From a virus: a stretch of 64,000 nt of DNA. The position numbers and the translations under genes are program-made. Shown here piece after piece: positions 6,972 through 51,670 of the stretch. The notes below the pieces were generated by a model. The model worked only from the letters and a program-made list of their open reading frames with translations. It was not told the origin of the DNA and searched no databases. Each line of letters opens with the position of its first letter. Within the stretch, counting starts at the first letter, position 1. The stretch is from IMG/VR virus record IMGVR_UViG_3300045988_159115. One strand, given 5' to 3'.

Positions 6972-6995
6972 AAAACTTAGCTAATTGTTTTTTGG
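6972..6995 (-). promoter_or_regulatory. candidate phage promoter, class I (AACA-N6-TA core)
   Basis: Minus-sense CCAAAAAACAATTAGCTAAGTTTT. The TA lies ~42 nt upstream of the ATG at 6936. Confidence 0.55.
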
Positions 6996-7000
6996 CGGCA

Positions 7001-7975
7001 TTAATATGCGCCGTGATGATCAACGTTATACTTTCCAGCCTTCTGTCCAGAAGTCGCAAGCATTCCTTCGTACTTTTTGATCTGCGCATCAAGCTTAGCA
7101 ATCTTATGCTTAACCTGAGCTCGTCCAGCAGCATTATAAGCTTTAGAATAATTGCTATTATTCCCAAGGTTAGAAACACTGCGAATTGCAGACCTAACAA
7201 CTCCGTTTTGACTACGAAGACTGTTGCGCTGCTGCTTAAGGTTATTAAGTGTCTCAACAATTTGCTCGCGGGTCATACCGCCGACGTCGGCGGCATGCTT
7301 ATCGAGAGCATCCTGGTATTTCGGATCTGTGTTTGTACCAAGGATGCAAGAAACAACAGTACCAAGACGAGACATGATACCACTGTATTCCTTTACATAC
7401 TTCTTGGCGTCATCCATATTCTTACCAGCTTTTTCGCCTTCTTCGATCTGCTCCTTAAAACGGTTCAGATCATCATCGACAGTACCCATGTACTCTCGAA
7501 TAGCACGAATCGTATCACCAGCTGTGGACGCTTTCAGAATGAAATTACCAGCAGCTGTAGCTACGGCTGCACCAGCAGCAACTCCAGCAACAACACCTTT
7601 ATGACCAGTAAGGCACTGAGTAATCTGCTTAGCCAGATCCTTACCACGCTGCATCAAAGCTTTCGGATTGTGCTCAAGCTTGATGTCTTCCTTCGGAGCT
7701 TCTTCCAAAGGCTTACCGGTAATCTTAGAAATAAGATTTCGGACGAACTTCTGAATTGCTTCAATCATTCGAACGAAAATATTCTTCTTCTTACCGGTTG
7801 TCTCTTCTGCTTCAGCAAGATACAGCTCAGTGGCTTCTTCCATGATGGCATTTTCCAAAACCATCTTGTTATGAATTCGACGGAGATTCAGATCATGCTC
7901 AATGCAAGCCTGCTCATAAGCAACATCGAAATGCATCATCCGATTCTCAAATTCCAGAATAGTCATATCCGTCAT
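7001..7975 (-). CDS. helical paralog family member D
   Basis: 324 aa, SD AGGAGG. N-terminus ILEFENRMMHFDVAYEQACIEHDL, signature NIFVRMIEAIQKFVRNLISKITGK, Gly/Ala zipper-like segment GVVAGVAAGAAVATAAGNFIL. Confidence 0.85.
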   Translation of the reverse strand: MTDMTILEFENRMMHFDVAYEQACIEHDLNLRRIHNKMVLENAIMEEATELYLAEAEETTGKKKNIFVRMIEAIQKFVRNLISKITGKPLEEAPKEDIKLEHNPKALMQRGKDLAKQITQCLTGHKGVVAGVAAGAAVATAAGNFILKASTAGDTIRAIREYMGTVDDDLNRFKEQIEEGEKAGKNMDDAKKYVKEYSGIMSRLGTVVSCILGTNTDPKYQDALDKHAADVGGMTREQIVETLNNLKQQRNSLRSQNGVVRSAIRSVSNLGNNSNYSKAYNAAGRAQVKHKIAKLDAQIKKYEGMLATSGQKAGKYNVDHHGAY

Positions 7976-7990
7976 TGGGATTACCTCCTA

Positions 7991-9328
7991 TTACATAGAA
8001 TCAAGAATCTTCAGCATATCGTCGATACGCTCATCGTCCGACTTCAGGAAATAGCTTGTGTCAGACTTCGGCATCATATCGGTGCTCTCAAAGAACTGAG
8101 AGTATACCGTATCGTCATCAAGGTCTGAAGATGCTGACTCGGTCTTATGCCCAACACCAAGTCGATTTGCAACCTGGCTAAAAAGACCTTCTTTTGGAGC
8201 ATGTGAATCGTGAGGGATCTTATTCAGTGCGTCCCTAAGCTTTGCGATAATGGGAGAAGCTTCCTTAGGAGTTGCCTTGGAAATTGCTTCGTCGCAATCG
8301 CTAATAAAGCTTGTGCAATTGAATCCCTCAACATTGACGGTGCTAGAAATATCCTGAAGAGCAGTTTTCGCTGTTTCATACGGAGTTTTGAGACGAGTCT
8401 TAATTGCGTCAGTCTTAGCACCACAAAGCTGAGTGGTCTTACTGAGAAGAGTGTTTGCCTTAGCGTAAACATCGCTTGCAGACGCATTAGCCTTTTTCTC
8501 AGCGTCCTTAGCAGCTTTTGCCTCTTCATGCTTTTTCGCAGCAGCTTCGATATTCTTTCCAATACCAGGAATATGCTTACCAATTGATGTTGCGAAGCCA
8601 CTTACTTTTGTAGTCATAGATTGGAGGGTGCCCAGGATGCCGCCGAGATCGACACCGGTATTCTCAGCAATTGCCTCAGAAAAACGCTGAACGACCTTGG
8701 TAAAGTCGAATGCCTTGCGAATGCCATTTGCCACAGTACCAACAGTCACAACAGTTGCTGTAGGAATTGCAAACACCATCATGAGACTTGTGCACGCATC
8801 CAGAAAGCGATCAATGAGCGGAGTATGGTTCGTGTTATGAACACGCTGCTTGCCATAGTCAACCTTCAGATTAACCTTGATACCTTTCTTAGAAAGATTA
8901 TCAACGTCCTTCATCAGGCGCTTTGCGTAAGCAGGAGTCATAAGATTGGAACACTTATCCATTTCCTTAACTGCTTTATCGACATCAATAGGAGCCTTGA
9001 CACCCTGAGGGTTTGCTTCCTCAGCAGCCTTTACATCAGCTTCCTTCGGCTGAAGATTAAAGATTGCAGAGATGATGCCCTGAAGCCACTTGTAGAACTT
9101 ATCCCAAACCTGCTTGATCTTTGCTGTGAAATCGTTTGCTTCCTCAGTATACATCTGAGTCATAGCATCCATATCATAGTCTTCTGATTCGAACTTGAAA
9201 TCCAGATCAGCCAGATTCAGCTTATGAGTGGCATTTGCACTTTCGATCATGTAGTCGATATCAGCCATGACATTGTCTGCCTTGGCTTCCTCGATCTCCA
9301 TGACACGTGAATACTCACTAAAAGTCAT
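7991..9328 (-). CDS. helical paralog family member E
   Basis: 445 aa, SD AAGGAGG. N-terminus SRVMEIEEAKADNVMADIDYMIESA, signature DFTAKIKQVWDKFYKWLQGIISAIFNL, hydrophobic segment LMMVFAIPTATVVTVGTVANG. Confidence 0.85.
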   Translation of the reverse strand: MTFSEYSRVMEIEEAKADNVMADIDYMIESANATHKLNLADLDFKFESEDYDMDAMTQMYTEEANDFTAKIKQVWDKFYKWLQGIISAIFNLQPKEADVKAAEEANPQGVKAPIDVDKAVKEMDKCSNLMTPAYAKRLMKDVDNLSKKGIKVNLKVDYGKQRVHNTNHTPLIDRFLDACTSLMMVFAIPTATVVTVGTVANGIRKAFDFTKVVQRFSEAIAENTGVDLGGILGTLQSMTTKVSGFATSIGKHIPGIGKNIEAAAKKHEEAKAAKDAEKKANASASDVYAKANTLLSKTTQLCGAKTDAIKTRLKTPYETAKTALQDISSTVNVEGFNCTSFISDCDEAISKATPKEASPIIAKLRDALNKIPHDSHAPKEGLFSQVANRLGVGHKTESASSDLDDDTVYSQFFESTDMMPKSDTSYFLKSDDERIDDMLKILDSM

Positions 9329-9416
9329 AGGATTTACCTCCTTAGTTATTTAAATTAGTTTCTTTAGTAATGAAAAGCTTGAGCCTTCATTAGCTAAAGA
9401 ATAACTATCATAGCTC

Positions 9417-9444
9417 AAACTTTAACTCATTGTTTTCAAGGCTA
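9417..9444 (-). promoter_or_regulatory. candidate phage promoter, class I
   Basis: Minus-sense AGCCTTGAAAACAATGAGTTAAAGTTTG, immediately downstream (minus sense) of terminator 9463-9506 and ~90 nt upstream of the ATG at 9328. Confidence 0.55.
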
Positions 9445-11291: not shown

Positions 11292-12647
11292 TTAGTGACT
11301 GATCATGCGGGTGAGCTCTCTGCCGATCTTATTGGAATTCATCGTAACTTCACGTTCCAGTGATTCGAGGGCATACGTCTCAAATGTATTATTCCCATCA
11401 TAGAGAATATCAACAGTACGATTGCCGTCATCGACAATGATGAATGTCATAAGGAAGAGAGACCGCATCATCGGAACTGCAAACTTCGGATTCCGAAGAT
11501 CATAGCCGGTCTTATTCTTGATCAGGTCTGCTTCATAACCGTTAATGACAACGGTTGCCTGAGGAACCAGCTGAGTACGACTCATCGTAGCCATCTGAGC
11601 CTTTGCAGTAGAACGCATACGCTTCAGAGTATTCCACCAAGGAGATGCACCCATTGAACGGTTTGCAACATCCAGTTTCACATCGTTGATATGGAGCAGA
11701 AGATCCTTAACCAGAGACTTCTCGCCGGTCGTCCAACGAATAAAGTTAAAGAGAACGCCACGATTCTGCATGGTATTCGTAAGATTCACAATCATTTCAT
11801 CCGAATGGACAGAATGGAGAATCACCTTAATACCAACGACGAAATCGACGAACTGGACAAACTCCTCCTCGTCATTGATTGCAGAAAGACGAACCTGCAT
11901 CATGTAAGGCTGCATGTCGTTCTGCTTCTTCACGTCGTTATCCTTCAGAAGCTGAGGCACGGTCTTATTGAAACTCTGCTTATACTTTTCCTTATCCAGA
12001 TCATTTGCAGCACGATAGCGATCGAACTGCATGTCTGTGATCTTCTTATTCATATAATCAGAATCGACTTCTGCCTCACGAGCATAGAACGGATTATTAC
12101 CGACATTCGGGATCGGAGAATAATCCAGATCCTTCAGAGCAGAACTCATCTGAGCCTTATGGGATTCAAAAATAGCCTTCGGGAACTTTTCAGAGAAATT
12201 GAAAGCAAGAATCTGACCGGTTGACTCATTGATATATGCCTTAGTAGAGCCATCATAGATACGAGCAAAAAGAGCATCGTAGTCCGGATCCGGTTCCACG
12301 CAGTTTTCAAGATAGGTATCAATTGCGGTAGACTCGAGCTTCACGTTCTTATGAAAACGCTGAATATACTGATTCACATCCTTATAGTCAGCGATATTCA
12401 TGATATTTTGGGTAGAAAGATAGGTCTGCACAAAAGACGCATACACTCGTTCCATAGTCTTTGCAAGTGTGCTGGCCATATCAATGGGAATAGAATCACT
12501 AATCAGGCAAGGAAACTGCATTGTCGTGTCCATCGCGCCACGAGCAAAACTCTTACGAACCATCTGATTACTCACATGGGTAACATCTGCCCCGACACGG
12601 CCGGCATCACGAACAGCAGCAATGATATCACTAATCGGTGATGACAT
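11292..12647 (-). CDS. hypothetical protein (first gene of a class-I-promoter-driven, presumably structural, operon)
   Basis: The listed start is a GTG. The ATG at 12647 (MSSPISD) follows AGGTGG. 451 aa, no domain recognised. Confidence 0.75.
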   Translation of the reverse strand: MSSPISDIIAAVRDAGRVGADVTHVSNQMVRKSFARGAMDTTMQFPCLISDSIPIDMASTLAKTMERVYASFVQTYLSTQNIMNIADYKDVNQYIQRFHKNVKLESTAIDTYLENCVEPDPDYDALFARIYDGSTKAYINESTGQILAFNFSEKFPKAIFESHKAQMSSALKDLDYSPIPNVGNNPFYAREAEVDSDYMNKKITDMQFDRYRAANDLDKEKYKQSFNKTVPQLLKDNDVKKQNDMQPYMMQVRLSAINDEEEFVQFVDFVVGIKVILHSVHSDEMIVNLTNTMQNRGVLFNFIRWTTGEKSLVKDLLLHINDVKLDVANRSMGASPWWNTLKRMRSTAKAQMATMSRTQLVPQATVVINGYEADLIKNKTGYDLRNPKFAVPMMRSLFLMTFIIVDDGNRTVDILYDGNNTFETYALESLEREVTMNSNKIGRELTRMISH

Positions 12648-12701: not shown

Positions 12702-12730
12702 GGAAAACTTACCTAATTGTTTTTAGGTGC
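12702..12730 (-). promoter_or_regulatory. candidate phage promoter, class I
   Basis: Minus-sense GCACCTAAAAACAATTAGGTAAGTTTTCC, just downstream (minus sense) of terminator 12761-12807 and ~60 nt upstream of the ATG at 12647. Confidence 0.6.
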
Positions 12731-12818: not shown

Positions 12819-13052
12819 TCAGTCATCATAATTCCAGATGCTTTTCTTCTTTTTCTTGTGCTTCTTTTTCTTCTTCTTTCCTTTCAGATATTTCTCTCTG
12901 TCCTTCCCAGAAAGAAACTCTCCGCTGAGTGCATCAACGACGTTCCTGGTGGTGCCATCCGTATATGTACCGAGGACAACTTTTTGTACCTTCTTATCCC
13001 CGGCAATATCCATGACTGCACTTCCAAGAGCTTTCAGAACTTTGGGATCCAT
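12819..13052 (-). CDS. small protein with a poly-lysine C-terminal tail
   Basis: 77 aa, SD AAAGAGGTG. Tail KGKKKKKKHKKKKKSIWNYDD is encoded by a ~45-nt polypurine tract. Confidence 0.7.
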   Translation of the reverse strand: MDPKVLKALGSAVMDIAGDKKVQKVVLGTYTDGTTRNVVDALSGEFLSGKDREKYLKGKKKKKKHKKKKKSIWNYDD

Positions 13053-13102: not shown

Positions 13103-13125
13103 CATTAATATAATATATAAATAAA
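13103..13125 (-). promoter_or_regulatory. AT-rich TATATTATAT box (candidate second promoter type)
   Basis: Minus-sense TTATTTATATATTATATTAATGAG, ~55 nt upstream of the ATG at 13052 and just after terminator 13131-13180. Confidence 0.3.
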
Positions 13126-16068: not shown

Positions 16069-16148
16069 ATTAAAAATCACTCCTTAAAAAGTTATTTCTA
16101 TAGATATAAACTGGGATAGCCGAGTCGCTATCCCTTGTTTGTATCATA

Positions 16149-16176
16149 GCATTTAATAAGATGTTTATGGTTAATC
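16149..16176 (-). promoter_or_regulatory. candidate phage promoter, class I (more divergent copy)
   Basis: Minus-sense GATTAACCATAAACATCTTATTAAATGC (AACA-N6-TA kept), between terminator 16188-16224 and the ATG at 16068. Confidence 0.4.
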
Positions 16177-20240: not shown

Positions 20241-20270
20241 CTGATTAGAATACTGTTTTCAGGTGGTATG
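20241..20270 (-). promoter_or_regulatory. candidate phage promoter, class I
   Basis: Minus-sense CATACCACCTGAAAACAGTATTCTAATCAG, directly after hairpin 20274-20314 and ~60 nt upstream of the ATG at 20185. Confidence 0.55.
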
Positions 20271-20273: not shown

Positions 20274-20314
20274 GATAGACACTGATACCCAATGAAGAAA
20301 TATCAGTGTCTATC
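20274..20314 (-). terminator. stem-loop (terminator or 3' end of the upstream non-coding transcript)
   Basis: 14-bp perfect stem gatagacactgata / tatcagtgtctatc. Only a weak U-run on the minus strand. Confidence 0.45.
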
Positions 20315-24343: not shown

Positions 24344-26449
24344 TTATTCCTCATCGTTGACTTCATCAATCACCGAATCAGAATCGGTGGACATTGCATG
24401 GTCCTCGATGAACCGTTCCGTAGAAGTGGTCTTCTTGAAGTATGCGTCAATGTAAGAAGGAGCGTTCTTGATCGTAACCAAGTTATCGCTCATCAACTGA
24501 CGCTTGATGTCCTGACCAGCAAAGCCGAGCAGAGGAGACTTATTGTGCTCGATTGCACGAGAGACGGTAAGAATCTTGTACTTACCAACCTCATCCTTCG
24601 TAAAATCAGGACGCTCAAAATCAACATCTGGATCCTTACGAATCAGACGACTGATGATCAGCTCACCAGACAGTGCAGTTGCACCAATCTTTGCATCAAG
24701 CAGAAGGTCGGTAAACTTCTGTGCCATCTCATGATAGTTGGACGTGACGTTCTGATCTGCTTTCGCCTTACTATTCAGAAGACTCATCAGAGAGTACAGC
24801 GGCTTCGTCAGCTCGTTGTTCATGATGACGATACTGAACAGAGTAGTCAGTTCATTCATCTCAGAGAAACGAGCATAACCACGACCCTTACGAACGAGAT
24901 CAATCAGGTCATCCGTCAAGAACAGCTCACGGTCTTCATCCGTAGAAATCCAGATAGACTCATGAGTTTTCATGTTCTGCACATAGAAGCCGCCGAGCAC
25001 GTAGCTGTTGAACGAAGAATCTTCGTCCAGTTCATCTGCTTTCTGAATGGAAGTAGGATCAATCCAAACTGCCCAGTCTTCAATATCGGGAATTGCGTCA
25101 TCCCCAATCTTCGGACTCACCTCGCCACAGTACAGCTTGAAGAAACGATTGAACTCTTCAGAGAAGTTGATCTTCTCAGATACCGTGGTAAGCAGATGCT
25201 TTGCAGACAGAATCATCTGGTTCACAACCTTAGTGAACTCCTCAACTTCAAAGCCAACGACGCCAGCAGAAATATCGAAGTTCATCGTAGACGTACGGCC
25301 AAAACAAACATGACACACTTCATCATGACACGAACAAGTAATCGGACTACGGAAATTAACCCAAGTACCAATCAACTGCGTATCCTTTCTTGCATTCACA
25401 AGACGGATTTCGCCATTTGCATCAACGTAGTACCGGTTGTTATACTTCTGAAGCATCTGAGGAGTTTTGATATAAATCTTCAGATAATGCTTCGTTCCAC
25501 AATCCGACACGGTCTTGGACAGAGACAAAGTACGTGCCAACAGAAGGACAAGCTTACCGAAATAGCCAGCATTGCCCATGACCTTCTTATTCATAATCAG
25601 AGATTTGCGAGCGCCCAATGCATCAATGTAATGAGAACTCGGTTTATCCAGACCACGAATCAGAGTAGAAGAGTTGATAGGAAGCGGGATGGTAATACCA
25701 GCAAGGTCAGGTTTCAAGCCCATATGAGCAGTGAACTCAACGAGCTGCTTGTGCTTAATGCCCGTATCCGCACGAAGAATCGTACCAACGGGATCATCCT
25801 TCCGAGATTTGATCTCAGCGATCAATCTCTTCTGAATATCAGCCAGAGAATCTTCAATCTCACTCGGCTGCATATCAAGCGGGAATCTGGTTTCCATCAG
25901 CTCACGAAGGGTAGGATCATCACGATACCAATGCAGGAACGTTTCACTGGACATCGTCAGACCCATAATCAGAGAGAAGTTGATCGAAATGCTTCGCAGA
26001 TCATGAAGCACATTCGAAATAGAGTTGTTGACTGTGGTATTTCGCACACTGTAATCTCTCAGTGCAGTGACGATTTTCTGATCAATGTAGTCCTTCAGAT
26101 GAGGAACTTCATTCCAGCAGTCAAAGATATAGTTTTCATCCATCTCGAAGTCCGTATCATACAGATTCACGAGAGGATGCCACATGAAAAGATTGATGAG
26201 AAAGTGACGCAGTTGAAGCGTATGAATCTTCTCATCACGGTTCTCTTTATAAAACTTGAAAGGCACCATATACTCACGGCAATCTTTCTTTTCAAAGCAC
26301 CCTTTTACGATCATGTAGATTTGATCAACCAGCGCACTATAATCTTCGTCGCACCTCATATAGTCGTTGATGAAATAAATTGGGCGTAAAAACGTCTTCA
26401 GTTCTTCAACGTCATGAATCTCAGGGACAATGTTGCTGTTGCTACTCAT
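24344..26449 (-). CDS. multisubunit RNA polymerase beta-prime subunit, C-terminal half (stand-alone gene)
   Basis: GLDKPSSHYIDALGARKSLIMNKKVMGNAGYFGKLVLLLARTLSLSKTVSDCGT aligns with the bacterial beta-prime bridge-helix region (G.....YFIS.HGARKGLADTALKTA.SGYLTRRLVDVAQD......DCGT). No NADFDGD motif is present, so the N-terminal half must be encoded elsewhere. Confidence 0.8.
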   Translation of the reverse strand: MSSNSNIVPEIHDVEELKTFLRPIYFINDYMRCDEDYSALVDQIYMIVKGCFEKKDCREYMVPFKFYKENRDEKIHTLQLRHFLINLFMWHPLVNLYDTDFEMDENYIFDCWNEVPHLKDYIDQKIVTALRDYSVRNTTVNNSISNVLHDLRSISINFSLIMGLTMSSETFLHWYRDDPTLRELMETRFPLDMQPSEIEDSLADIQKRLIAEIKSRKDDPVGTILRADTGIKHKQLVEFTAHMGLKPDLAGITIPLPINSSTLIRGLDKPSSHYIDALGARKSLIMNKKVMGNAGYFGKLVLLLARTLSLSKTVSDCGTKHYLKIYIKTPQMLQKYNNRYYVDANGEIRLVNARKDTQLIGTWVNFRSPITCSCHDEVCHVCFGRTSTMNFDISAGVVGFEVEEFTKVVNQMILSAKHLLTTVSEKINFSEEFNRFFKLYCGEVSPKIGDDAIPDIEDWAVWIDPTSIQKADELDEDSSFNSYVLGGFYVQNMKTHESIWISTDEDRELFLTDDLIDLVRKGRGYARFSEMNELTTLFSIVIMNNELTKPLYSLMSLLNSKAKADQNVTSNYHEMAQKFTDLLLDAKIGATALSGELIISRLIRKDPDVDFERPDFTKDEVGKYKILTVSRAIEHNKSPLLGFAGQDIKRQLMSDNLVTIKNAPSYIDAYFKKTTSTERFIEDHAMSTDSDSVIDEVNDEE

Positions 26450-26648
26450 AAATTCACTTCAGTCCTTTCAATGATTTCTCATGGGTTATGTGTCTGTAAC
26501 CTAACCCATTCTTTTCTAATGAATACGTACTACATATTATAATCCTCCTTTAATAAGCATCGAATATATAATATATAATCATAAAGAATTATAAGATAGA
26601 ACAAATAGGTATCGCTTAGATAGGCGATAAGATAAGTATATAATATGC

Positions 26649-26736
26649 GTCACCGTGGTGGAATTTTGGCAGACACGTAGCTCTGAGGCGGCTATCCGTT
26701 TAATTATGGGTCCCGGTTCAAGCCCGGGCGGTGACA
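26649..26736 (+). tRNA. tRNA-Leu: tRNA-Leu (anticodon GAG), class II
   Basis: Acceptor gtcaccg/cggtgac, anticodon stem tagct/ggcta with loop cTGAGgc, 17-nt variable arm, T arm cccgg-ttcaagc-ccggg, discriminator A. No encoded CCA. Confidence 0.8.
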
Positions 26737-26741
26737 CTCAC

Positions 26742-26819: not shown

Positions 26820-26820
26820 A

Positions 26821-26860
26821 AAAATACCAGGTGGATAGATAATATTCTACCTGGTATTTT
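26821..26860 (+). terminator. intrinsic terminator after the tRNA-Leu/Thr pair
   Basis: Stem aaaataccaggt / acctggtatttt, followed by TTATT. Confidence 0.75.
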
Positions 26861-26920: not shown

Positions 26921-26927
26921 CATATAT

Positions 26928-29659: not shown

Positions 29660-29687
29660 GAGGCTTAATGGTTTGTTTTCTGACCAT
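29660..29687 (-). promoter_or_regulatory. candidate phage promoter, class I
   Basis: Minus-sense ATGGTCAGAAAACAAACCATTAAGCCTC, directly after terminator 29701-29738 and ~40 nt upstream of the start codon. Confidence 0.55.
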
Positions 29688-32390: not shown

Positions 32391-34097
32391 TTAAATTCTG
32401 CTAAGGAAGAACAGAAGTTCATCCGAGATCGTATCCTCATCGTAAGAGATAGGAGTGCCAAGGAGTTCTTCCTCTTCCCACACAACGTAGGTAAACGAAG
32501 TGTTGATAAACTTAGACAGAATCTCCATGATGTAATCGGGTTTAATCGAGATCAACTGAGAGTATTTTCCCTCGCACATCTTCTGGTACAACGCAGTATT
32601 CCGAACTTTCTCCACGAACTTATTCTTGCGAATCTGTCGGGTATTCACAGTGCCGGAAACATTGCCAGAAAGAATATAGGGAAGTGCGCAAGTCTCAATA
32701 GATCCAGATCCATCGTAACCTGCCGTGTCGAACAACCGCTTCTTCAGAATCAGCATGAGAATGATATACTGGCGACGATTGATAAGCTCCATGTTCATGT
32801 AACCACCGAAGTACTTTGCCCAGTAAGCACATACAAGCTGAACCTGCAACTGATGCATATTGTGGTTCTTGATGTAATACTGGATTTCGTTCTCGGAGAT
32901 TTCGAAATCATTGTCTCTCATGATACGCGCCATAGTCGTCTTGATGTTCATCTCTGCCAAGAAGACGCGGCCCTCGTCGATTTTGCTAAGATTCATTTCC
33001 ATCTTATCATTACCGGAAAGGCCATCCGTATTCTTTGCAGAGGTGACTTCGGTCAGATTCTTCGCATACTGCTCTTTCAGGAAATAGACCAGCTGATACT
33101 TGATGATCGTCTTGTTGAAGCCAATGATGTTCTCCCGATATTTCTTGGTCTTCGGGTTATAGTGCTCATTGAACTGGTACTTGACGATGTTCTCGCTGAT
33201 CAGAACCTTACGCAGGAAGGAGTTCATCACGGTATACTCATCATAGCCAAGGATATCTCTTTGATCAAAAATTACGGAGTTATGAGATTTATTCTCAAGC
33301 ACCTTCGCCTTGACATAGACAAAGAGCTTGTTGTAAATATTCATGTCTCCTTCATTAAAGATGTCGAAGAGCTTGGCATAGAAATTGTAGATCGTGTCGG
33401 AGTCTCTTTCCGGCTTCATCCGGTTGACAGAGAAAAAGTGGAACATCACAGGGGCAATCAACTTCATACCAAAACTGATACGAAGAAGAACCTTCACGTG
33501 GATGTTTCGGAATTCAAGACTCTCCAGATGCTTCTTTGCATCCTTCAAGTACTTCGAATTATCCGTCGCTTCGATGTCGTCCAGATAGTTGTCCTCCACA
33601 AGCTGCTTAATCTTTTCAATGACCGTCGGAGTAAAGAGGATCTCGTAGATCAGACTAATCAGCTGAGGCATGTTGTCTTGTGTAAAGCGCTTGATTTCTT
33701 TACCATTCTCGTTCTCACCACAGGTTTCTTTATCAATTGCGTACTTCAACTTCAGTAAGGCTAATGGAACCTCATGCTCAGTATCGTACTTTTCAATGAA
33801 GTAATTAAGGTAAGTAGCGATGGTGGGAAGCTGGCTTCCGTAGGAGACTTTATCGACAAAGAATCTGTCATAGACAGACATCTTCTCTTCTGGCTTATAG
33901 AGCTTCTCGAAGTGGAAGATGAAAATTTTTCCATCTGCTTCCGCATACAGATTCGATTTGTCGCGCTTGGGTTTCCATTGGGTAATCTCCGCTTTGGGAG
34001 CCGTAGCTTCCGTCCACTCAGACTTCGGTCTTGTCGCACCACGAGACCGAGTAGGAGTGGAAACTGCTTGGGTAGTTTTGCTGTTGTCGGTTTCCAT
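32391..34097 (-). CDS. hypothetical protein with a basic disordered N-terminus
   Basis: The ATG at 34097 (METDNSK) follows GAGAGGAG; the listed start is a TTG inside the SD. 568 aa, no domain recognised. Confidence 0.8.
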   Translation of the reverse strand: METDNSKTTQAVSTPTRSRGATRPKSEWTEATAPKAEITQWKPKRDKSNLYAEADGKIFIFHFEKLYKPEEKMSVYDRFFVDKVSYGSQLPTIATYLNYFIEKYDTEHEVPLALLKLKYAIDKETCGENENGKEIKRFTQDNMPQLISLIYEILFTPTVIEKIKQLVEDNYLDDIEATDNSKYLKDAKKHLESLEFRNIHVKVLLRISFGMKLIAPVMFHFFSVNRMKPERDSDTIYNFYAKLFDIFNEGDMNIYNKLFVYVKAKVLENKSHNSVIFDQRDILGYDEYTVMNSFLRKVLISENIVKYQFNEHYNPKTKKYRENIIGFNKTIIKYQLVYFLKEQYAKNLTEVTSAKNTDGLSGNDKMEMNLSKIDEGRVFLAEMNIKTTMARIMRDNDFEISENEIQYYIKNHNMHQLQVQLVCAYWAKYFGGYMNMELINRRQYIILMLILKKRLFDTAGYDGSGSIETCALPYILSGNVSGTVNTRQIRKNKFVEKVRNTALYQKMCEGKYSQLISIKPDYIMEILSKFINTSFTYVVWEEEELLGTPISYDEDTISDELLFFLSRI

Positions 34098-34180
34098 CAG
34101 ATAACTAACTCCTCTCAAAAATCAGTTATACTAACGTGCTCAGAGATATAACATATCATTCAAAAGCACGATGTATATTT

Positions 34181-37265: not shown

Positions 37266-37288
37266 ATAAGTTAATTTTGTGTCATCAC
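37266..37288 (-). promoter_or_regulatory. candidate promoter, class II (ATGACA-N6-TAA)
   Basis: Minus-sense GTGATGACACAAAATTAACTTAT, ~25 nt upstream of the ATG at 37246. Confidence 0.3.
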
Positions 37289-41877: not shown

Positions 41878-41901
41878 ACTATAAAAACAGTAGTGTAATG
41901 A
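41878..41901 (+). promoter_or_regulatory. candidate phage promoter, class I
   Basis: Plus-sense CTATAAAAACAGTAGTGTAATGAC, ~45 nt upstream of the ATG at 41941. Confidence 0.45.
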
Positions 41902-42725: not shown

Positions 42726-42745
42726 GTTTATATATTATATATTTG
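42726..42745 (+). promoter_or_regulatory. TATATTATAT box (candidate second promoter type)
   Basis: GTTTATATATTATATATTTG lies ~55 nt upstream of the ATG at 42800 and is followed by a 7-bp hairpin at 42752-42780. Confidence 0.3.
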
Positions 42746-42799: not shown

Positions 42800-43021
42800 A
42801 TGAAGTATGACCAGGCAGTTCTTGATCGAATGGCTGATAGTTATGAAAAGTATCTCTATTTTCTAAAGAGGTACATCGTGCTCGAAGGGCTCGAAGAAAA
42901 GACATACAAAAAGCATGTAAAAAAGATCAAGAAGATGATTAAGCATCTACGTAAGGGAGAGGGAGACAAAGTTCTCATTCCCGAGCGTTATCTTGCTTAT
43001 GTCGAGAAGTACGGAAAGTAA
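42800..43021 (+). CDS. small basic helical protein
   Basis: 73 aa, SD AGGAGGTG. Confidence 0.75.
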   Translation: MKYDQAVLDRMADSYEKYLYFLKRYIVLEGLEEKTYKKHVKKIKKMIKHLRKGEGDKVLIPERYLAYVEKYGK

Positions 43022-45770: not shown

Positions 45771-47333
45771 TTAAGCTTTAGCTTGAGCAGCCTTCCAATC
45801 CGTTCTATAAGAACGAATAGTATCTTTGAACTTCGGAACGTCTTGAATCTTAATAACTTTTTCCAGATAAATATTCATGAACCTGCTGAAATAGTCTTCA
45901 GTGTCATCTGCCTTTGCTTTCGAAAGATCAGTAACAAACTTTTCTGGCCAAGAAACTTCCTTGTGCTTATTAATATATTTCAGCATGCATTGCACCATGT
46001 CCATTTTCTTTGGTGAGGTTGCTTTAATAACGGTATCACCGAAATCAATTGTGACAAGGTAAGGTAGCTCGTAGACATAAGTCAACTTATCCGAGTTCGC
46101 ATATGTCGCCTGGATAAGGTCTTTTACATCTTTAGATACTTTTGATTTTTGAGGGAATCCATATAAGGCCCACGCATAAACCTCTCCAACAACGCCATTA
46201 TGCATAGAAGTCCCTTCACTCTGCTTCGCAGATCTCGCGGTCTTAAATGCTGCAAGACCGGTCTTATTCAATACATTATCTCGAATGAGTGGAATACTCG
46301 TAACAGCTTTGTTGACAGATGGAGCGATTTTATTGTTATACGTATCAGAAACGGTATTCCTAACAGTACCAGCAATATCGACTTCACCTTGGGTCGCCTG
46401 CTTTATTAACTCACTTGCGCCAAGTGAGGTAAGTGTGATGCCTGTAATTTTTGCGATAGCTAAAAGAGCTGCTGTATTCTTCTGGTGATACCCACCACAA
46501 TCTCGCATATATTTACGAACATGTGTTTCGATAGAAGAAGTCATCCTCTGAAGAAGATTTGCCTGCTCTTTTACCTTAACTCCTTTTGCGTCTTCCTTAA
46601 ACTTAGCAAGAACTTTATCGGAGTCGGCCTTAACAGCATCCATGTCAAGCTCAATGTCTTTCAGCTCTTTGTCTGAAAAACGGATCGCATCTTCAAGCGC
46701 GAGATTGACGACCTCGGCGTTCTGCTCAATCAGCTTTTCATACTTAGCATTGCACTTATCTATGGATTCTTTGATGTCGTTATACTCGAGAATAATTGAA
46801 GACGTATTATCCCTGTCGGGAACAAATGCGCCAACGATAGGAAGCATTTGCAGTCCATAACTAGCATCGTTATTTGCTTCAACCTTAAGGCGCATTAAAC
46901 GACGTTCAAGCTGAGCCATCTCTTTGATGTAAGCATCAAGTGCCTTCTTGTTCTTTTTTGTACGATAGACCTTAATCTGTTTGCGAGCAGATTCAGGGAG
47001 CTTCTTTGCAGATTTAACAGCCGCCTTGATCTGAGCAAGCTTTTCTTTCTCTTCCTTACTACCAAAGATCTTAATCTTTAGATTACGGAAGAAAAGGCCG
47101 ACGTTATCAATAACTTTCTGAATAAATCCAGAAAGTTTGGAAATCAGATCACTACACGCATTCTCATAAAGAATTGAAGTTTCGTGGTCTGAAATAATAT
47201 GAGAAGCTGCTTCCGTATAGAGTTCAGTAGCTTCTACATGAAATGCGTCAATGTAGGATCGCATCATGTGATCATTTTCCATAGCGATGCATTCACTCTC
47301 TGTGAAGATGATATCCAATTCTGGATAACACAT
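45771..47333 (-). CDS. helical paralog family member G
   Basis: 520 aa, SD AAAGGAG. N-terminus ELDIIFTESECIAMENDHMMRSYIDAF, signature LISKLSGFIQKVIDNVGLFFRNLKIKIFG, hydrophobic segment AALLAIAKITGITLTSLGA. Confidence 0.85.
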   Translation of the reverse strand: MCYPELDIIFTESECIAMENDHMMRSYIDAFHVEATELYTEAASHIISDHETSILYENACSDLISKLSGFIQKVIDNVGLFFRNLKIKIFGSKEEKEKLAQIKAAVKSAKKLPESARKQIKVYRTKKNKKALDAYIKEMAQLERRLMRLKVEANNDASYGLQMLPIVGAFVPDRDNTSSIILEYNDIKESIDKCNAKYEKLIEQNAEVVNLALEDAIRFSDKELKDIELDMDAVKADSDKVLAKFKEDAKGVKVKEQANLLQRMTSSIETHVRKYMRDCGGYHQKNTAALLAIAKITGITLTSLGASELIKQATQGEVDIAGTVRNTVSDTYNNKIAPSVNKAVTSIPLIRDNVLNKTGLAAFKTARSAKQSEGTSMHNGVVGEVYAWALYGFPQKSKVSKDVKDLIQATYANSDKLTYVYELPYLVTIDFGDTVIKATSPKKMDMVQCMLKYINKHKEVSWPEKFVTDLSKAKADDTEDYFSRFMNIYLEKVIKIQDVPKFKDTIRSYRTDWKAAQAKA

Positions 47334-47366: not shown

Positions 47367-47394
47367 GTAAACTTAGGGAATTGTTTCAGGGTGG
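47367..47394 (-). promoter_or_regulatory. candidate phage promoter, class I
   Basis: Minus-sense CCACCCTGAAACAATTCCCTAAGTTTAC, ~40 nt upstream of the ATG at 47333. Confidence 0.55.
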
Positions 47395-47452: not shown

Positions 47453-48490
47453 ATGGATAGTTACTTTCTCGAGTTTGACCTTGAATGTGAAAAGGCCGAT
47501 TACCTCTATGAATGTGCTTATGATAAGTTCATGATTGATGTAACGGAAGTTCACAATAAGGTCAAACTTGGGTATTTTAACGAATCATCAAACGATGCAT
47601 CCTTTATGCTTGAGGAAGCTGGAAAGTCGTTCGTTGACTCTATCAAGGCGTTCTTCGGTAAGATTCTTAACGGGATTAAGACTCTCGTTAAGAAAGTTAC
47701 CGGTGCGATCAAGACTAAGTTCAACCAGATCACTGCTTCCGGAAAGCTGAAGAATGTCGAACAGGCTCTTGTCACAAACAAAGAGCTTGCTGGTCAAAAA
47801 ATCAAAATCACCGATCGTGCGAAGTATATCGCCGCATACGATGATTATGTGAAAGCCGCTGTTGCTGGTGTACGCAAGCTTCAGACTACCCAGTATAAAA
47901 ACGCTGATGAATACAAGAAGGCTCAGGATGAACTTTCTGAGAAGCTTCAAGGTATCATCAAGAGTTGGAATCTGGATGGTTCTGACGTACGGCAGTTAAA
48001 CATCGGCATTGCTGATGCTGTAAAGCTCAGTAATAAAGAGATCAAGGATTTCGACAAGAATATGTCCGAAATCCAGGGGAAATGGACAGATACAATTGGC
48101 ATTCTCCAAAAATGTGCTCTCAATGAAGACGATCCTTCTAAGATCGGATTCATTAAGAGCATCACAAACCAATTCAATAGCGTGTCGTCCAAAGCGTACA
48201 ACTATTGTGCGAAGCATCCCGCTCAAATTGTCGCAGCAACCTTAACTGCATCTGCAGCTGCTGCAGGTGGCGTTGCTGTAAATAAAGCATACTGGAAGGG
48301 CGAAGGCCAACAAAGAATCCTTAAGAAAGATAATGAAGAGCGCGCAAAGAGAGGAGAAAAAACTCTCGAGACACCTGCAAAAAACACTTTTTGGGGAAAA
48401 GTAGTTGACGGCGCCCGGGGAATAACTGCAGGCATAAATCAAGCTACTGGCATAAAAGAAGACAATGATTTATGGAGAGATTTAATTTAA
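47453..48490 (+). CDS. helical paralog family member H
   Basis: ATG at 47453 (a TTG at 47450 is also possible) after AAGGAGG. N-terminus YFLEFDLECEKADYLYECAYDKFMIDV, signature SFVDSIKAFFGKILNGIKTLVKKVTGAIKTKF, then AKHPAQIVAATLTASAAAAGGVAV. Confidence 0.85.
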   Translation: MDSYFLEFDLECEKADYLYECAYDKFMIDVTEVHNKVKLGYFNESSNDASFMLEEAGKSFVDSIKAFFGKILNGIKTLVKKVTGAIKTKFNQITASGKLKNVEQALVTNKELAGQKIKITDRAKYIAAYDDYVKAAVAGVRKLQTTQYKNADEYKKAQDELSEKLQGIIKSWNLDGSDVRQLNIGIADAVKLSNKEIKDFDKNMSEIQGKWTDTIGILQKCALNEDDPSKIGFIKSITNQFNSVSSKAYNYCAKHPAQIVAATLTASAAAAGGVAVNKAYWKGEGQQRILKKDNEERAKRGEKTLETPAKNTFWGKVVDGARGITAGINQATGIKEDNDLWRDLI

Positions 48491-49967: not shown

Positions 49968-49974
49968 CTAATGC

Positions 49975-51261
49975 TTATACGTCAAAAATAGCTTTCATGT
50001 CATCAACAGCGGACTCAGCCATCTGAAGCTGCTCGTTCTCATCAGAGCGATACTTAAACTTCGACATAGACTTCTCGAAATTATTGTCAATCGTGTCATC
50101 ATGACGATTATACACAACGAACTTCTCACGGGAAGAAACCACGTTCTTCAAAGTATCGTAGAAGCCACGATTCGCGCGAACCTCTTCCTTACAAACAGAG
50201 CTCAGCTTAGAATAGTAAGCATAATTTGTTCCCTTCGAAACAACTGCGCGTGCAGCAGGCTTAATATCGTCACTGAACTTATTGATCTCCTTCTCATAGT
50301 CGTCAATTGCGCTCTTGTACTGTGCGACCAGGTCCTTCGCCTTATCAAAGGCGTCATCAGACGGAGTCAGATAGCGAATAACACCAGAAGTTTCCTGATA
50401 CGCATTCACCATCTTAAGACGAGCTCGAGTAAGCTCGGTAATAGAAGAATTCATCTGACGAAGAAAGCCTTCATCTGTAGTACCACCAGTAACTGCACTC
50501 TTTGCAGTCTTCAGTGCGTTCATAACGTTCTTCTTCGCTTTATCAACGTTCTCCTTCTTCGGAGCAAGCTTTGACAGGATCTCCTTAACACCTTCCGAGT
50601 AATACTCCTCGTCAGTCATATAAGACTGAGTAGAGTATTCATTGAAAAATGCTTCGGTCTCATTCAGATCAGAAAGAAGATCATCGACGTATTCCTTTGC
50701 GAACAGAGGCTTCTTCGCAGGAGCAGCTGCCATATTATTCTCATATCGAGCAAGCTCCTTCTTACGGAACTTGATCTTATTCTTCAGCTCATCGGAATAC
50801 TGGATCAGTCGATTGATGTAGAAGTTCTTATCACCGTAGTTAATCTGGCCACCATTGAGACCCTTGCCTACGCTGTTCAGTCGCATGGACTCCTTCGTCC
50901 GATCAATAGCAGCTTTTCCAGTGAACGGAATAAAGTCCTTCAGAATAGGAATGAAAAGACCTGTGATATAGCTGCCGAATGTAGAAGCTTCACGCCACTC
51001 CTTCAGTGACGTATCAAGATCTTCCATAATCGCAACTGCCTTATCAAGATCTGCAGCTGCTGCCTTGAAATTCTTTGCTTTCACATCTTTCTTGTACTGC
51101 TTCACAAGAGCTTTTGCAGCACGAGTGCGATCGTGATATTCTTTATGTGCTTCCCAGTTTGCACCTTCTGTGGTAACTGTGAACATTGAAACTGCTTCAT
51201 CGTTAGACAGAAGTCCAGACTGAGCAGCTTCCATGATCACAAAATCAAGATTTGTTGCCAT
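49975..51261 (-). CDS. helical protein, subfamily TNL(E/D)F..EA..SG
   Basis: 428 aa, SD AAAGGAG. N-terminus MATNLDFVIMEAAQSGLLSNDE. Confidence 0.8.
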   Translation of the reverse strand: MATNLDFVIMEAAQSGLLSNDEAVSMFTVTTEGANWEAHKEYHDRTRAAKALVKQYKKDVKAKNFKAAAADLDKAVAIMEDLDTSLKEWREASTFGSYITGLFIPILKDFIPFTGKAAIDRTKESMRLNSVGKGLNGGQINYGDKNFYINRLIQYSDELKNKIKFRKKELARYENNMAAAPAKKPLFAKEYVDDLLSDLNETEAFFNEYSTQSYMTDEEYYSEGVKEILSKLAPKKENVDKAKKNVMNALKTAKSAVTGGTTDEGFLRQMNSSITELTRARLKMVNAYQETSGVIRYLTPSDDAFDKAKDLVAQYKSAIDDYEKEINKFSDDIKPAARAVVSKGTNYAYYSKLSSVCKEEVRANRGFYDTLKNVVSSREKFVVYNRHDDTIDNNFEKSMSKFKYRSDENEQLQMAESAVDDMKAIFDV

Positions 51262-51275
51262 CTCTTTATACTCCT

Positions 51276-51569
51276 TTACTCATTATTATCAGAATCATCC
51301 ATAGGAGGAGGCTCTGTCTCATCACTGTTGGTACGTCCTTTCAGTGTCTTCGCCACAGTAATACCAGCACCAGTTGTGATAACCCACTTTGCAAAACCAA
51401 AAACTTCAGTTGTAAGCGTGCTATCAAGCTGAATCTGGCTACCAGTCTTCAGACCAACGAAGCCAAGAATGATGTCAATAATCGTATAGATGATGACCAA
51501 TGTGGAGCATAAGATCAGCATCATGTCACGAGTTTTAACCGTCTTCCTTTTCCCGTGTTTAGTGGTCAT
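51276..51569 (-). CDS. small two-pass membrane protein
   Basis: The ATG at 51569 (MTTKHGK) follows GAAAGGAG. Hydrophobic MLILCSTLVIIYTIIDIILGFVGL and FAKWVITTGAGITVA. Acidic tail. Confidence 0.65.
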   Translation of the reverse strand: MTTKHGKRKTVKTRDMMLILCSTLVIIYTIIDIILGFVGLKTGSQIQLDSTLTTEVFGFAKWVITTGAGITVAKTLKGRTNSDETEPPPMDDSDNNE

Positions 51570-51644
51570 GCCTATCACTCCTTTCCATTAAACACTAGAG
51601 TTGACATTAAATACTTGTACTTAAGAGAAACCCTAGTGAATATA

Positions 51645-51670
51645 GCACCTGAAAACAATAGGGTAAGCGA
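51645..51670 (+). promoter_or_regulatory. candidate phage promoter, class I
   Basis: Plus-sense GCACCTGAAAACAATAGGGTAAGCGA, ~55 nt upstream of the ATG at 51719. Confidence 0.6.

What the first reader, a model, noticed from the sequence alone, without database searches (positions are those of the whole stretch)
6972..51670. Conserved ~25-nt upstream motif at nine sites (CCTGAAAACAAT-N4-TAAG; invariant AACA-N6-TA): probable promoter of the phage multisubunit RNAP
Sense-strand copies:
- 6972-6995(-) CCAAAAAACAATTAGCTAAG
- 9417-9444(-) CCTTGAAAACAATGAGTTAAA
- 12702-12730(-) CACCTAAAAACAATTAGGTAAG
- 16149-16176(-) CCATAAACATCTTATTAAA
- 20241-20270(-) CACCTGAAAACAGTATTCTAAT
- 29660-29687(-) GTCAGAAAACAAACCATTAAG
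- 41878-41901(+) CTATAAAAACAGTAGTGTAAT
- 47367-47394(-) ACCCTGAAACAATTCCCTAAG
- 51645-51670(+) CACCTGAAAACAATAGGGTAAG
All nine lie in intergenic DNA in the same orientation as the downstream gene, 35-110 nt from its start codon. At least five follow an intrinsic terminator within ~30 nt, forming terminator-promoter cassettes. The downstream genes are the helical paralogs and structural genes. As I recall the literature, late promoters of the non-virion multisubunit RNAP of Bacillus jumbo phage AR9 have a core of AACA at -11 to -8 and TA at -1/+1, which is the same AACA-N6-TA geometry. This window also encodes a split beta-prime subunit. That would place the transcription start at the A of TAAG.
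Basis: partly seen in the sequence, partly recalled or inferred. Interest (0 to 1): 0.75.

Follow-up and report, generated by a model that had tools for sequence, protein, structure and literature searches.

The report
AR9-type late promoters, uncultivated jumbo phage
The repeated AACA-N6-TA motif is real and is most likely the late-gene promoter read by this giant phage's own RNA polymerase, as in Bacillus phage AR9, so it is a new example of a known system rather than a new kind of element.

Summary
All nine sites exist as written. The core AACA-N6-TA occurs 24 times in the window. Sixteen hits lie in the 11% of DNA that is intergenic (p=2e-10), and 15 of those point at the downstream gene. 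Other spacings (N3-N5, N7-N10) show neither this enrichment nor the roughly two-fold depletion inside genes on both strands. I count 14 conserved sites rather than nine. Thirteen are kept at the same distance in two relatives at 45-75% protein identity. The fourteenth precedes a tRNA cluster.

The published AR9 late promoter is A(-11)ACA-N6-T-A/G(+1). The window encodes homologs of the AR9 non-virion RNAP beta'-C half (24344-26449) and of gp226, its promoter-specificity subunit (32391-34097; the family profile hits PDB 7S01_A at E=2.6e-25). Both genes sit behind AR9-type early promoters (ATATATTAT-N6-G). A virion-RNAP gene just outside the window sits behind the late motif.

AR9, phiR1-37 and 25 diverse metagenomic relatives show the same statistical signature. 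No 5' ends have been mapped, and whether recognition needs deoxyuridine DNA is unresolved.

Verdict: interpretation supported. This is a new member of a known kind, of moderate interest.

The parts
4421..4432 (-). Late-promoter core AACAcatcttTA, with predicted TSS at the A at 4421. It lies 40 nt upstream of gene 3172-4380(-).
   Evidence: Conserved in relative L010 at 44 nt from the start codon.
6978..6989 (-). Late-promoter core AACAattagcTA, upstream of gene 5776-6936(-).
   Evidence: Conserved in L010.
9423..9434 (-). Late-promoter core AACAatgagtTA, upstream of 7991-9328(-). It sits about 22 nt downstream of an 18-bp terminator hairpin.
12710..12721 (-). Late-promoter core AACAattaggTA, upstream of 11292-12647(-), a homolog of AR9 virion protein gp213. 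A terminator lies about 40 nt upstream.
   Evidence: AR9 gp213 also has AACA-N6-TA upstream.
16154..16165 (-). Late-promoter core AACAtcttatTA, upstream of 14995-16068(-). A terminator lies about 23 nt upstream. A GC-rich hairpin (16113-16134) lies in the predicted 5' UTR.
20246..20257 (-). Late-promoter core AACAgtattcTA, upstream of the 989-aa gene 17216-20185(-). It follows a 19-bp hairpin.
26600..26611 (+). Late-promoter-like core AACAaataggTA, 37 nt upstream of the tRNA cluster (Leu, Thr, Ser, Gln; 26649-27254). It lacks the A at +2.
   Evidence: The same motif lies 24-31 nt upstream of the same tRNA cluster in L017 and L018.
29666..29677 (-). Late-promoter core AACAaaccatTA, upstream of 28798-29628(-). 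A terminator lies about 20 nt upstream.
   Evidence: Conserved in L017 and L018.
41886..41897 (+). Late-promoter core AACAgtagtgTA in a divergent intergenic region, upstream of 41941-42603(+) (virion structural protein by PHROG match).
47374..47385 (-). Late-promoter core AACAattcccTA in a divergent intergenic region, upstream of 45771-47333(-).
51654..51665 (+). Late-promoter core AACAatagggTA in a divergent intergenic region, upstream of 51689-53500(+), a homolog of AR9 virion protein gp212.
   Evidence: AR9 gp212 also has the motif 26 nt upstream.
56919..56930 (+). Late-promoter core AACAatcagtTA. Its TAA is the stop codon of 53533-56931, and it lies 43 nt upstream of 56974-57885(+).
58256..58267 (-). 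Late-promoter-like core AACAtcaccaTA, upstream of the small gene 57931-58092/58209(-). It is a weaker match to the flanking consensus.
   Evidence: conserved in L065 and L066.
62058..62069 (-). Late-promoter core AACAaaatggTA, upstream of 60149-61987(-), a homolog of AR9 virion protein gp204. It is embedded in the left arm of a 16-bp terminator-like hairpin that follows the giant tape-measure-like gene.
37272..37283 (-). Candidate degenerate site GACAcaaaatTA, 25 nt upstream of the GroEL-like gene 35183-37246(-). It has one mismatch at -11.
   Evidence: 17 of 24 relatives have a consensus AACA-N6-TA 19-56 nt upstream of this gene, mostly 25-37 nt. In AR9 a -11 substitution abolishes transcription in vitro, so function here is doubtful.
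24344..26449 (-). Gene for the C-terminal half of the non-virion RNAP beta' subunit (701 aa).
   Evidence: PHROG 'RNA polymerase beta subunit' at E=4.5e-48. The best tblastn hit is the AR9 gene annotated 'non-virion RNAP subunit, beta' C-terminus', at 29% identity over 564 aa.
32391..34097 (-). Gene for a homolog of AR9 gp226 (568 aa), the sigma-like promoter-specificity subunit that reads the AACA element on the template strand.
   Evidence: BLASTP to AR9 gp226 gives 23% identity over 445 aa at E=2e-16. hhalign probability is 99.3%. The family profile hits PDB 7S01_A at E=2.6e-25 over nearly the full length. The gene order GroEL, hypothetical, gp226 is conserved.
26561..26576 (-). AR9-type early (virion RNAP) promoter ATATATTAT-N6-G upstream of the nvRNAP beta'-C gene. 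Context for the cascade.
   Evidence: AR9 early consensus is AAATATATATTAT-(6N)-G.
34141..34156 (-). Early-promoter-like ATATGTTAT-N6-G (one mismatch) upstream of the gp226-like gene.
   Evidence: About 13-15 of the 25 relatives carry an ATATATTAT-like early motif followed by N6-G here, and 0 of 25 carry the late motif (sequences read by eye).
13103..13118 (-). Early-promoter-like ATATATTAT-N6-G upstream of the small gene 12819-13052(-).
42730..42745 (+). Early-promoter-like ATATATTAT-N6-G upstream of the small gene 42800-43021(+).

Best explanation
The AACA-N6-TA(A) sites are late promoters of a roughly 255-kb uncultivated jumbo phage. They are used by the phage's own non-virion multisubunit RNA polymerase.

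By homology with AR9, a gp226-like sigma-analogue bound to the split beta/beta' core recognises the complement of AACA (3'-TTGT/UUGU-5') on the template strand at -11 to -8. Transcription starts at the A of the TA, 11 nt downstream of the first A.

The regulatory logic is a two-polymerase cascade. The injected virion RNAP reads early promoters (ATATATTAT-N6-G). These drive the nvRNAP genes, including the beta'-C half and the gp226-like gene in this window. The nvRNAP then reads AACA-N6-TA in front of virion genes, a tRNA cluster, the GroEL-like gene (in relatives) and the virion-RNAP gene.

Shown here: the motif, its placement, spacing specificity, orientation, conservation and avoidance inside genes; the presence of the two polymerase genes; and which promoter class sits in front of which gene. 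Inferred by homology only: which enzyme binds the sites, template-strand read-out, and the exact start site.
For: 1. Placement. 16 of 24 hits fall in the 11% of DNA that is intergenic, and 15 of 16 are co-oriented. Only the N6 spacing behaves this way.

2. Selection against the motif inside genes on both strands. The 25 relatives have 108 sense and 79 antisense hits at N6, against 196-253 and 136-246 at other spacings. This fits a DNA signal rather than an RNA signal.

3. Conservation. All 13 sites tested are conserved at the same distance in two genomes of 45-75% protein identity. They form a conserved island from -13 to +8, flanked by DNA at about 50% identity. The tRNA-cluster site is also kept in both. 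Across 25 non-redundant relatives with gp226 identity down to about 41%, 102 of 293 hits are intergenic (p=9e-27).

4. Published AR9 consensus and mechanism. AR9 itself gives the same statistics with my pipeline, and so does phiR1-37.

5. The window encodes an nvRNAP beta'-C homolog and a gp226 homolog.

6. Orthologous genes in AR9 (gp212, gp213) carry the same motif.

7. Three sites (41886, 47374, 51654) lie in divergent intergenic regions, where a promoter must exist for each direction.

8. Reciprocal promoter logic. The nvRNAP genes have early-type motifs and never the late motif (0 of 25). The GroEL-like gene (17 of 24) and the vRNAP beta'-N gene have the late motif.

9. Sigma-70-like promoters are at chance level.
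Against: - There is no transcript 5'-end or in vitro data for this phage.
- Only two of the five expected nvRNAP subunit genes lie in the window. The others were not looked for.
- The core has low information content, and its total count in the window equals chance, so any single site, especially 58256 and 26600, could be fortuitous.
- Sites 16154 and 62058 have terminator-like hairpins downstream of the predicted start. This is odd for a simple promoter.
- Most downstream genes have no annotation, so their 'late' class is inferred.
- AR9 nvRNAP strictly needs deoxyuridine at -11 and -10. It is unknown whether this phage's DNA contains dU.
Confidence: 0.85

Rival explanations
1. The sites are promoters, but another enzyme reads them: the host RNA polymerase with a host or phage sigma factor, or the virion RNAP acting on a middle class of genes.
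For: AR9-like phages do encode sigma-like proteins (AR9 annotation). No experiment assigns these sites to a polymerase.
Against: The motif has no -35/-10 architecture, and sigma-70-like sites are at chance level. The virion-RNAP class is represented by a separate motif, nearly identical to AR9's early promoter, in front of different genes. In AR9 the identical motif was assigned biochemically to the nvRNAP with gp226, and a gp226 homolog is present here.
Confidence: 0.06
2. The motif is an RNA-level element in 5' UTRs or between cistrons, such as an RNase processing site or a translational or stability signal, and not a DNA promoter.
For: The motif is strand-specific and lies 23-95 nt upstream of start codons at most sites. 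Some sites (56919, 13226) sit at gene ends inside operons.
Against: The motif is avoided about two-fold on the antisense strand of genes as well as the sense strand, which an RNA signal would not require. Five sites lie just downstream of strong terminators, and three lie in divergent regions where no upstream transcript would carry them. The geometry matches an experimentally mapped promoter.
Confidence: 0.05
3. The pattern is a chance or compositional artefact of AT-rich intergenic DNA.
For: The total count equals the shuffled expectation. AT-rich dyads dominate an unbiased dyad ranking, in which AACA-N6-TA is ninth of 36,844.
Against: The enrichment is specific to one spacing. 15 of 16 intergenic hits are co-oriented. 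All 13 sites tested are conserved at orthologous positions. The signal replicates in 25 relatives (p=9e-27), in AR9 and in phiR1-37.
Confidence: 0.01

Closest known systems
Late promoters of Bacillus phage AR9/PBS1, A(-11)ACA-N6-T-A/G(+1), read by the five-subunit non-virion RNAP through gp226 (Lavysh 2017, PMC5312081; Sokolova 2017, PMC5449584; Fraser 2022, PMC9209446)
   Same: - The core and spacing are identical.
- The position relative to start codons is the same: 17-60 nt in AR9 and 23-94 nt here for most sites.
- The spacing-specific intergenic enrichment and coding depletion are the same.
- Homologous beta'-C and gp226 genes are present, with conserved GroEL-hypothetical-gp226 gene order.
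- The orthologous virion genes gp212 and gp213 carry the motif in both phages.
- The accompanying early promoter ATATATTAT-N6-G is the same, and it drives the nvRNAP genes in both.
   Different: - Proteins are only 23-30% identical, and there is no DNA similarity.
- This genome is 42% G+C, against 28% for AR9.
- The consensus here is longer: A at -13 and -12, and A at +2 in 13 of 14 window sites and 46 of 57 sites in relatives. AR9 has A or G at +1 and nothing conserved at +2.
- The residue equivalent to AR9 V206, which enforces dU specificity, is Val here. Across the clade it varies (V, P, T, A, N, L), whereas in AR9's close relatives it is invariant.
- The dU content of the DNA is unknown.
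Yersinia phage phiR1-37 and Staphylococcus jumbo phages (MarsHill, S6 group): dU-containing relatives of AR9
   Same: They encode homologous two-RNAP systems. In a 50-kb stretch of phiR1-37, AACA-N6-TA shows the same N6-specific signature: 19 intergenic hits against 3-10 at other spacings, 18 of 19 co-oriented.
   Different: The literature reports that no late consensus could be derived for phiR1-37 or MarsHill. phiR1-37 prefers G after the TA (TAG), and this clade prefers A (TAA). The MarsHill signal is weak.
phiKZ late promoters (T(-3)ATG(+1)), read by the nvRNAP with gp68
   Same: A phage-encoded multisubunit nvRNAP with a distant gp226/gp68-type fifth subunit transcribes late genes independently of the host.
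   Different: The promoter sequence is entirely different, and phiKZ has a nucleus-forming lifestyle. This window's motif is the AR9 type and not TATG.
Bacterial sigma-70 -10 element
   Same: It is a short element centred near -10, read in single-stranded form by a sigma-like subunit.
   Different: In AR9 the element is read on the template strand, not the non-template strand. No -35/-10 pairs are enriched here.

Membership tests
AR9-type late (non-virion RNAP) promoter | Core sequence AACA, exactly six unspecified bases, then T followed by A or G | tested here: met
   All 14 sites have AACA-N6-TA. The N5 and N7 spacings, ACAA and the TGTT control show no signal.
AR9-type late (non-virion RNAP) promoter | Sites lie upstream of, and co-oriented with, late genes (virion proteins, the vRNAP, a tRNA gene), typically a few tens of nt from the start codon | tested here: met
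   15 of 16 intergenic hits are co-oriented, mostly 23-94 nt from start codons. Downstream genes include homologs of AR9 gp204, gp211, gp212, gp213 and gp214, a tRNA cluster and a vRNAP beta'-N gene just outside the window. The temporal class itself is not measurable here.
AR9-type late (non-virion RNAP) promoter | The genome encodes the nvRNAP, including the promoter-specificity subunit gp226 | tested here: met
   The beta'-C homolog is 24344-26449. The gp226 homolog is 32391-34097; its family profile hits 7S01_A at E=2.6e-25 and hhalign gives 99.3%. The beta-N, beta-C and beta'-N nvRNAP genes are not in the window and were not searched for.
AR9-type late (non-virion RNAP) promoter | Transcription starts at the A or G that follows the conserved T | not testable with these tools
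   No RNA data are available. The start site is predicted at the A of each TA.
AR9-type late (non-virion RNAP) promoter | The element is recognised on the template strand, with an obligatory deoxyuridine at -11 and -10 | tested here: inconclusive
   Three independent alignments place window V275/I276 opposite AR9 V206/I207, the residues that exclude thymine. The position varies in the clade, and AR9 Y210 aligns to an invariant Gln. DNA chemistry cannot be read from sequence. No ThyA or ThyX signature was found in the DNA held, but this was a regex scan only.
AR9-type late (non-virion RNAP) promoter | It coexists with a distinct AT-rich early promoter, AAATATATATTAT-N6-G, that drives the nvRNAP genes | tested here: met
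   Four ATAT[A/G]TTAT-N6-G sites were found, all intergenic and co-oriented. Two are in front of the beta'-C and gp226-like genes. The same holds in relatives.
Sigma-70-type bacterial promoter | TTGACA-like and TATAAT-like hexamers 16-18 nt apart, enriched upstream of genes | tested here: not met
   Counts were 46, 50 and 53 sites against 47.8, 50.2 and 50.4 expected from shuffles. The motif has no such architecture.
phiKZ-type late promoter | TATG overlapping the start site with no upstream element | not tested
   The element is too short to test statistically. The conserved element here is upstream, at -11 to -8, and is the AR9 type.

The most novel reading that the evidence does not exclude
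This clade's DNA contains ordinary thymine. Its gp226-like subunit would then read 3'-TTGT-5' on the template strand without the deoxyuridine requirement that defines AR9, making it a natural counterpart of the engineered V206G enzyme. Discrimination from host DNA would come from the longer consensus (AAAACA-N6-TAA).

Pointers in this direction:
- The phage and its relatives are assembled repeatedly, up to about 260 kb, from ordinary metagenomes, whereas dU DNA is reported to block standard PCR-based library preparation.
- The V206-equivalent position is variable in the clade.
- The motif carries more information than AR9's.

The opposite outcome would also be notable: a widespread, apparently human-associated jumbo-phage clade with dU genomes.
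Probability: 0.4. Interest if true: 0.6.

Novelty: new member of a known kind. Interest (0 to 1): 0.4.

Why it matters
It extends the AR9 two-polymerase transcription scheme to a large uncultivated clade of roughly 220-290-kb phages seen in many metagenomes. That scheme comprises an early ATATATTAT-N6-G promoter, a late AACA-N6-TA promoter, and a gp226-type specificity subunit. The gp226 family here has more than 448 members, with G+C from 25% to 41%.

It gives a ready promoter annotation for these genomes. [quoted passage not shown] A simple test does detect them here: enrichment between genes at one spacing only, together with avoidance inside genes. That test also picks up the motif in phiR1-37.

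It also sets up a clear question for experiment: does template-strand promoter reading in this clade still depend on deoxyuridine DNA?

Tried and rejected
1. Hairpin idea. Several sites look as if AACA sits in the loop of an inverted repeat (CCTAA..TTAGG at 12710, ACTACT..AGTAGT at 41886, ATGGT..ACCAT at 29666). A permutation test gave only marginal support (p=0.03 in the window, 0.04 in relatives) and none in AR9 (p=0.57). I dropped it.

2. Near-identical DNA in GenBank phages: none found. There is no cultured close relative.

3. A single-sequence search of the gp226-like protein against PDB sequences found nothing. The family profile was needed.

4. Unbiased dyad enumeration is dominated by AT-rich low-complexity dyads, and AACA-N6-TA ranks only ninth in the window. 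Spacing controls are the informative test.

5. Pfam and PHROG annotation of genes downstream of the sites gave mostly no hits.

6. The search for evidence on dU versus T was uninformative. No dU-metabolism genes turned up in the window genes scanned against Pfam or PHROGs, or in a tblastn of all 58 called genes against AR9. A regex scan for ThyA and ThyX signatures in all held loci found nothing credible.

7. Rfam found nothing in the 1-kb non-coding gap at 20.3-21.2 kb.

8. Source names for relatives in the protein collection: none available.

Full report
**1. The observation**

The nine sequences are present exactly as listed. The minimal core is not over-represented in total. AACA-N6-TAA occurs 14 times against 11.25 expected from dinucleotide shuffles. 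The signal lies in where the copies sit.

I called genes with an iterated codon-usage and ribosome-binding-site model. This gave 58 genes, with 11.3% of the window intergenic. Of 24 AACA-N6-TA hits, 16 are intergenic (binomial p=2e-10), and 15 of those 16 point towards the next gene. Controls were near background: AACA-N5-TA 6/18, AACA-N7-TA 5/32, ACAA-N6-TA 7/43, TGTT-N6-TA 3/25.

I then scanned all spacings from N3 to N10. N6 alone combines enrichment between genes with depletion inside genes on both strands: 17 hits against 2-6 between genes, 2 sense against 7-14, and 5 antisense against 2-14.

In an unbiased ranking of 36,844 4-mer/gap/2-mer dyads, AACA-N6-TA is ninth in the window. All higher ranks are AT-only dyads that reflect intergenic composition and the early promoter.

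**2. How many sites**

The last of these lies 37 nt upstream of a four-tRNA cluster.

The aligned 14 sites give a core of A(-13)A(-12)AACA(-11 to -8)-N6-T(-1)A(+1)A(+2).

Five sites (9423, 12710, 16154, 20246, 29666) follow a strong hairpin that ends 20-40 nt upstream. This confirms the terminator-promoter cassette remark.

**3. What the window is**

There is no near DNA match among 50,697 GenBank phage records. The 701-aa ORF 24344-26449(-) is an RNAP large-subunit fragment. Its best relatives are AR9, PBS1 and similar phages at 29% identity. The matched AR9 gene is annotated as the C-terminal half of the non-virion RNAP beta' subunit.

Near-identical contigs of up to 259 kb occur in several metagenome collections. 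Relatives at about 70% protein identity occur as well.

**4. Literature check**

The AR9 late promoter is AACA-(6N)-TA/G, with the last base as the start site. It was found at 94 of 118 non-early start sites. The AR9 early promoter is AAATATATATTAT-(6N)-G (PMC5312081).

The AACA bases are essential in vitro. Recognition is on the template strand, requires dU at -11 and -10, and depends on gp226 (PMC5449584; PMC7598289). The structure shows that gp226 V206 and I207, together with beta-N, form the -10U pocket. The V206G mutant accepts thymine (PMC9209446).

**5. The specificity subunit is in the window**

In AR9, gp226 lies two genes from a GroEL-like gene. The window has the same order: the GroEL-like gene 35183-37246, then 34181-35008 (34% identical to the AR9 neighbour), then 32391-34097.

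The 568-aa product of 32391-34097 aligns to AR9 gp226 over 445 residues (23% identity, pairwise E=2e-16). It has more than 448 metagenomic homologs, many on 200-290-kb contigs. A 15-sequence profile of the family matches AR9 gp226 with hhalign probability 99.3%. As its only hit at E<=1, the profile retrieves PDB 7S01_A at E=2.6e-25 over nearly the full length. The single sequence alone had found nothing.

All three alignments place window V275/I276 opposite AR9 V206/I207. Across the clade that position is V, P, T, A, N or L, and never G.

**6. Comparative evidence**

- Two genomes at 45-75% protein identity were compared (IMGVR_UViG_3300045988_137295 and _137032). All 13 sites tested have AACA-N6-TA at the orthologous place and the same distance from the start codon.
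- Identity is at least 0.65 from -13 to +8 and about 0.5 in the flanks.
- The tRNA-cluster site is also kept in both genomes.
- I fetched 45 loci around gp226 homologs and reduced them to 25 non-redundant ones, with gp226 identity 41-71% and G+C 25-40%. In these, AACA-N6-TA has 293 hits, 102 of them intergenic (35% against 11% expected, p=9e-27), and 73 co-oriented. N5 and N7 have 473 and 471 hits, with 13% and 11% intergenic. The motif is thus both enriched between genes and about two-fold avoided within them, on both strands.
- Upstream of the GroEL-like gene, 17 of 24 relatives carry the motif, mostly 25-37 nt from the start, with unrelated N6 and flanks. This window has a GACA variant there.

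**7. Positive controls**

The same scripts on 150 kb of AR9 give 43 of 154 hits intergenic, 41 of 43 co-oriented and 17-60 nt from start codons. Controls are at 4-12%.

AR9 gp212 and gp213 are the orthologs of window genes 51689-53500 and 11292-12647. Both carry the motif, as do their window counterparts.

A 50-kb piece of phiR1-37 shows the same N6-specific pattern, with 19 intergenic hits against 3-10. Staphylococcus phage MarsHill shows it weakly. Published analyses did not recover a late consensus for either phage.

**8. The cascade**

The AR9-type early motif ATAT[A/G]TTAT-N6-G occurs four times in the window. All four are intergenic and co-oriented: 13103-13118(-), 26561-26576(-) in front of the beta'-C gene, 34141-34156(-) in front of the gp226-like gene, and 42730-42745(+).

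In relatives, the gp226 homolog is preceded by this early motif in roughly half of the 25 loci and never by the late motif (0 of 25). Conversely, just beyond the left end of the window, a homolog of the AR9 virion-RNAP beta'-N gene (36% identity) has AACA-N6-TA about 40 nt upstream. This is the AR9 logic: early promoters make the nvRNAP, and late promoters make virion components, including the vRNAP.

**9. Rivals**

- Sigma-70-like promoters are at chance level.
- An RNA-processing signal is disfavoured for three reasons: the motif is avoided on the antisense strand too, five sites lie just after terminators, and three lie in divergent intergenic regions.
- Chance is excluded by the spacing controls and the conservation data.
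- A hairpin that presents AACA in its loop was tested and not supported.

**10. What remains open**

- No 5' ends have been mapped.
- Only two nvRNAP genes are in the window.
- Most downstream genes are unannotated.
- The deoxyuridine question is unresolved. The Val at the V206-equivalent position, and the fact that the cultured phages compared here (AR9/PBS1, phiR1-37, S6; MarsHill presumed) are reported to carry dU DNA, argue for dU. The variability of that position in the clade, the richer consensus, and the easy recovery of these genomes from ordinary metagenomes argue for thymine, because dU DNA is reported to block PCR-based library preparation. No ThyA or ThyX signature was seen in the DNA I hold, but that DNA covers only a fraction of the genome.

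**11. Verdict**

This is a new, uncultivated, distant member of the AR9-type late-promoter system, with a slightly longer consensus. Interest is moderate. The most interesting open reading is that the clade may use this template-strand promoter on thymine DNA.

Noticed in passing
window 13103-13118(-), 26561-26576(-), 34141-34156(-), 42730-42745(+): A second promoter-like motif, ATAT[A/G]TTAT-N6-G, is essentially identical to the AR9 early (virion RNAP) promoter. All four copies are intergenic and co-oriented. Two precede the nvRNAP beta'-C and gp226-like genes.
   Followed up: yes
window 26649-27254(+): A cluster of four tRNA genes (Leu-GAG, Thr-TGT, Ser-TGA, Gln-TTG). It is preceded by an AACA-N6-TA site at 26600 and by a TATATAATAT stretch at 26637. 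The same cluster and motif occur in two relatives.
   Followed up: partly
window 20290-21226: About 1 kb without a credible ORF, lying between two minus-strand genes. It contains G+C-rich, apparently structured segments such as GGTGTGAGATGGGGCCCGATACCCCGGTGGGGGACCAC. There is no Rfam or tRNA hit. Only the promoter-proximal 250 nt and one 90-nt piece are conserved in the 74% relative.
   Followed up: partly
window 62020-62069(-): The late-promoter core at 62058 lies inside the left arm of a perfect 16-bp hairpin (AAATGGTAAGGAAAAC / GTTTTCCTTACCATTT) followed by a T-run. The terminator of the giant upstream gene and the promoter of the next gene therefore overlap, and the predicted transcript would still begin with a 9-bp hairpin plus a U-tract. 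The arrangement is conserved in two relatives.
   Followed up: partly
window 62080-64000(-) and beyond (L001-L004): The ORF that runs off the right end of the window is a 3,906-3,939-aa protein with Peptidase_C39_2 and Phage_lysozyme2 domains. It occupies the position of the AR9 tape-measure gene.
   Followed up: no
L005:21338-21349(+) and L005:21391-22743(+) (about 9 kb beyond the left end of the window): A homolog of the AR9 virion-RNAP beta'-N subunit (36% identity) has an AACA-N6-TA site about 40 nt upstream.
   Followed up: partly
L067 (Yersinia phage phiR1-37, 40-90 kb): phiR1-37 shows the same N6-specific intergenic enrichment (19 against 3-10) and coding depletion of AACA-N6-TA, usually as AACA-N6-TAG. 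The literature says no late-promoter consensus could be derived for this phage.
   Followed up: partly
window 37272-37283(-): The GroEL-like gene has GACA-N6-TA here, where 17 of 24 relatives have a consensus AACA-N6-TA. It is either a weakened promoter or a site that has been lost.
   Followed up: partly
window 4789-5694, 5776-6936, 28798-29628, 45771-47333, 47453-48490: These genes form a weakly similar paralog family (19-24% identity, E from 7e-5 to 9e-15). Three of the five (5776-6936, 28798-29628, 45771-47333) sit directly behind late-promoter sites. 51689-53500 and 60149-61987 share a region that is 39% identical.
   Followed up: no
alignment A1, column of window residue 275: The residue equivalent to AR9 gp226 V206, which determines uracil rather than thymine specificity, varies across the uncultivated clade (V, P, T, A, N, L). 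The neighbouring N273, Q279 and R280 are invariant. AR9 Y210 aligns to the invariant Gln.
   Followed up: partly
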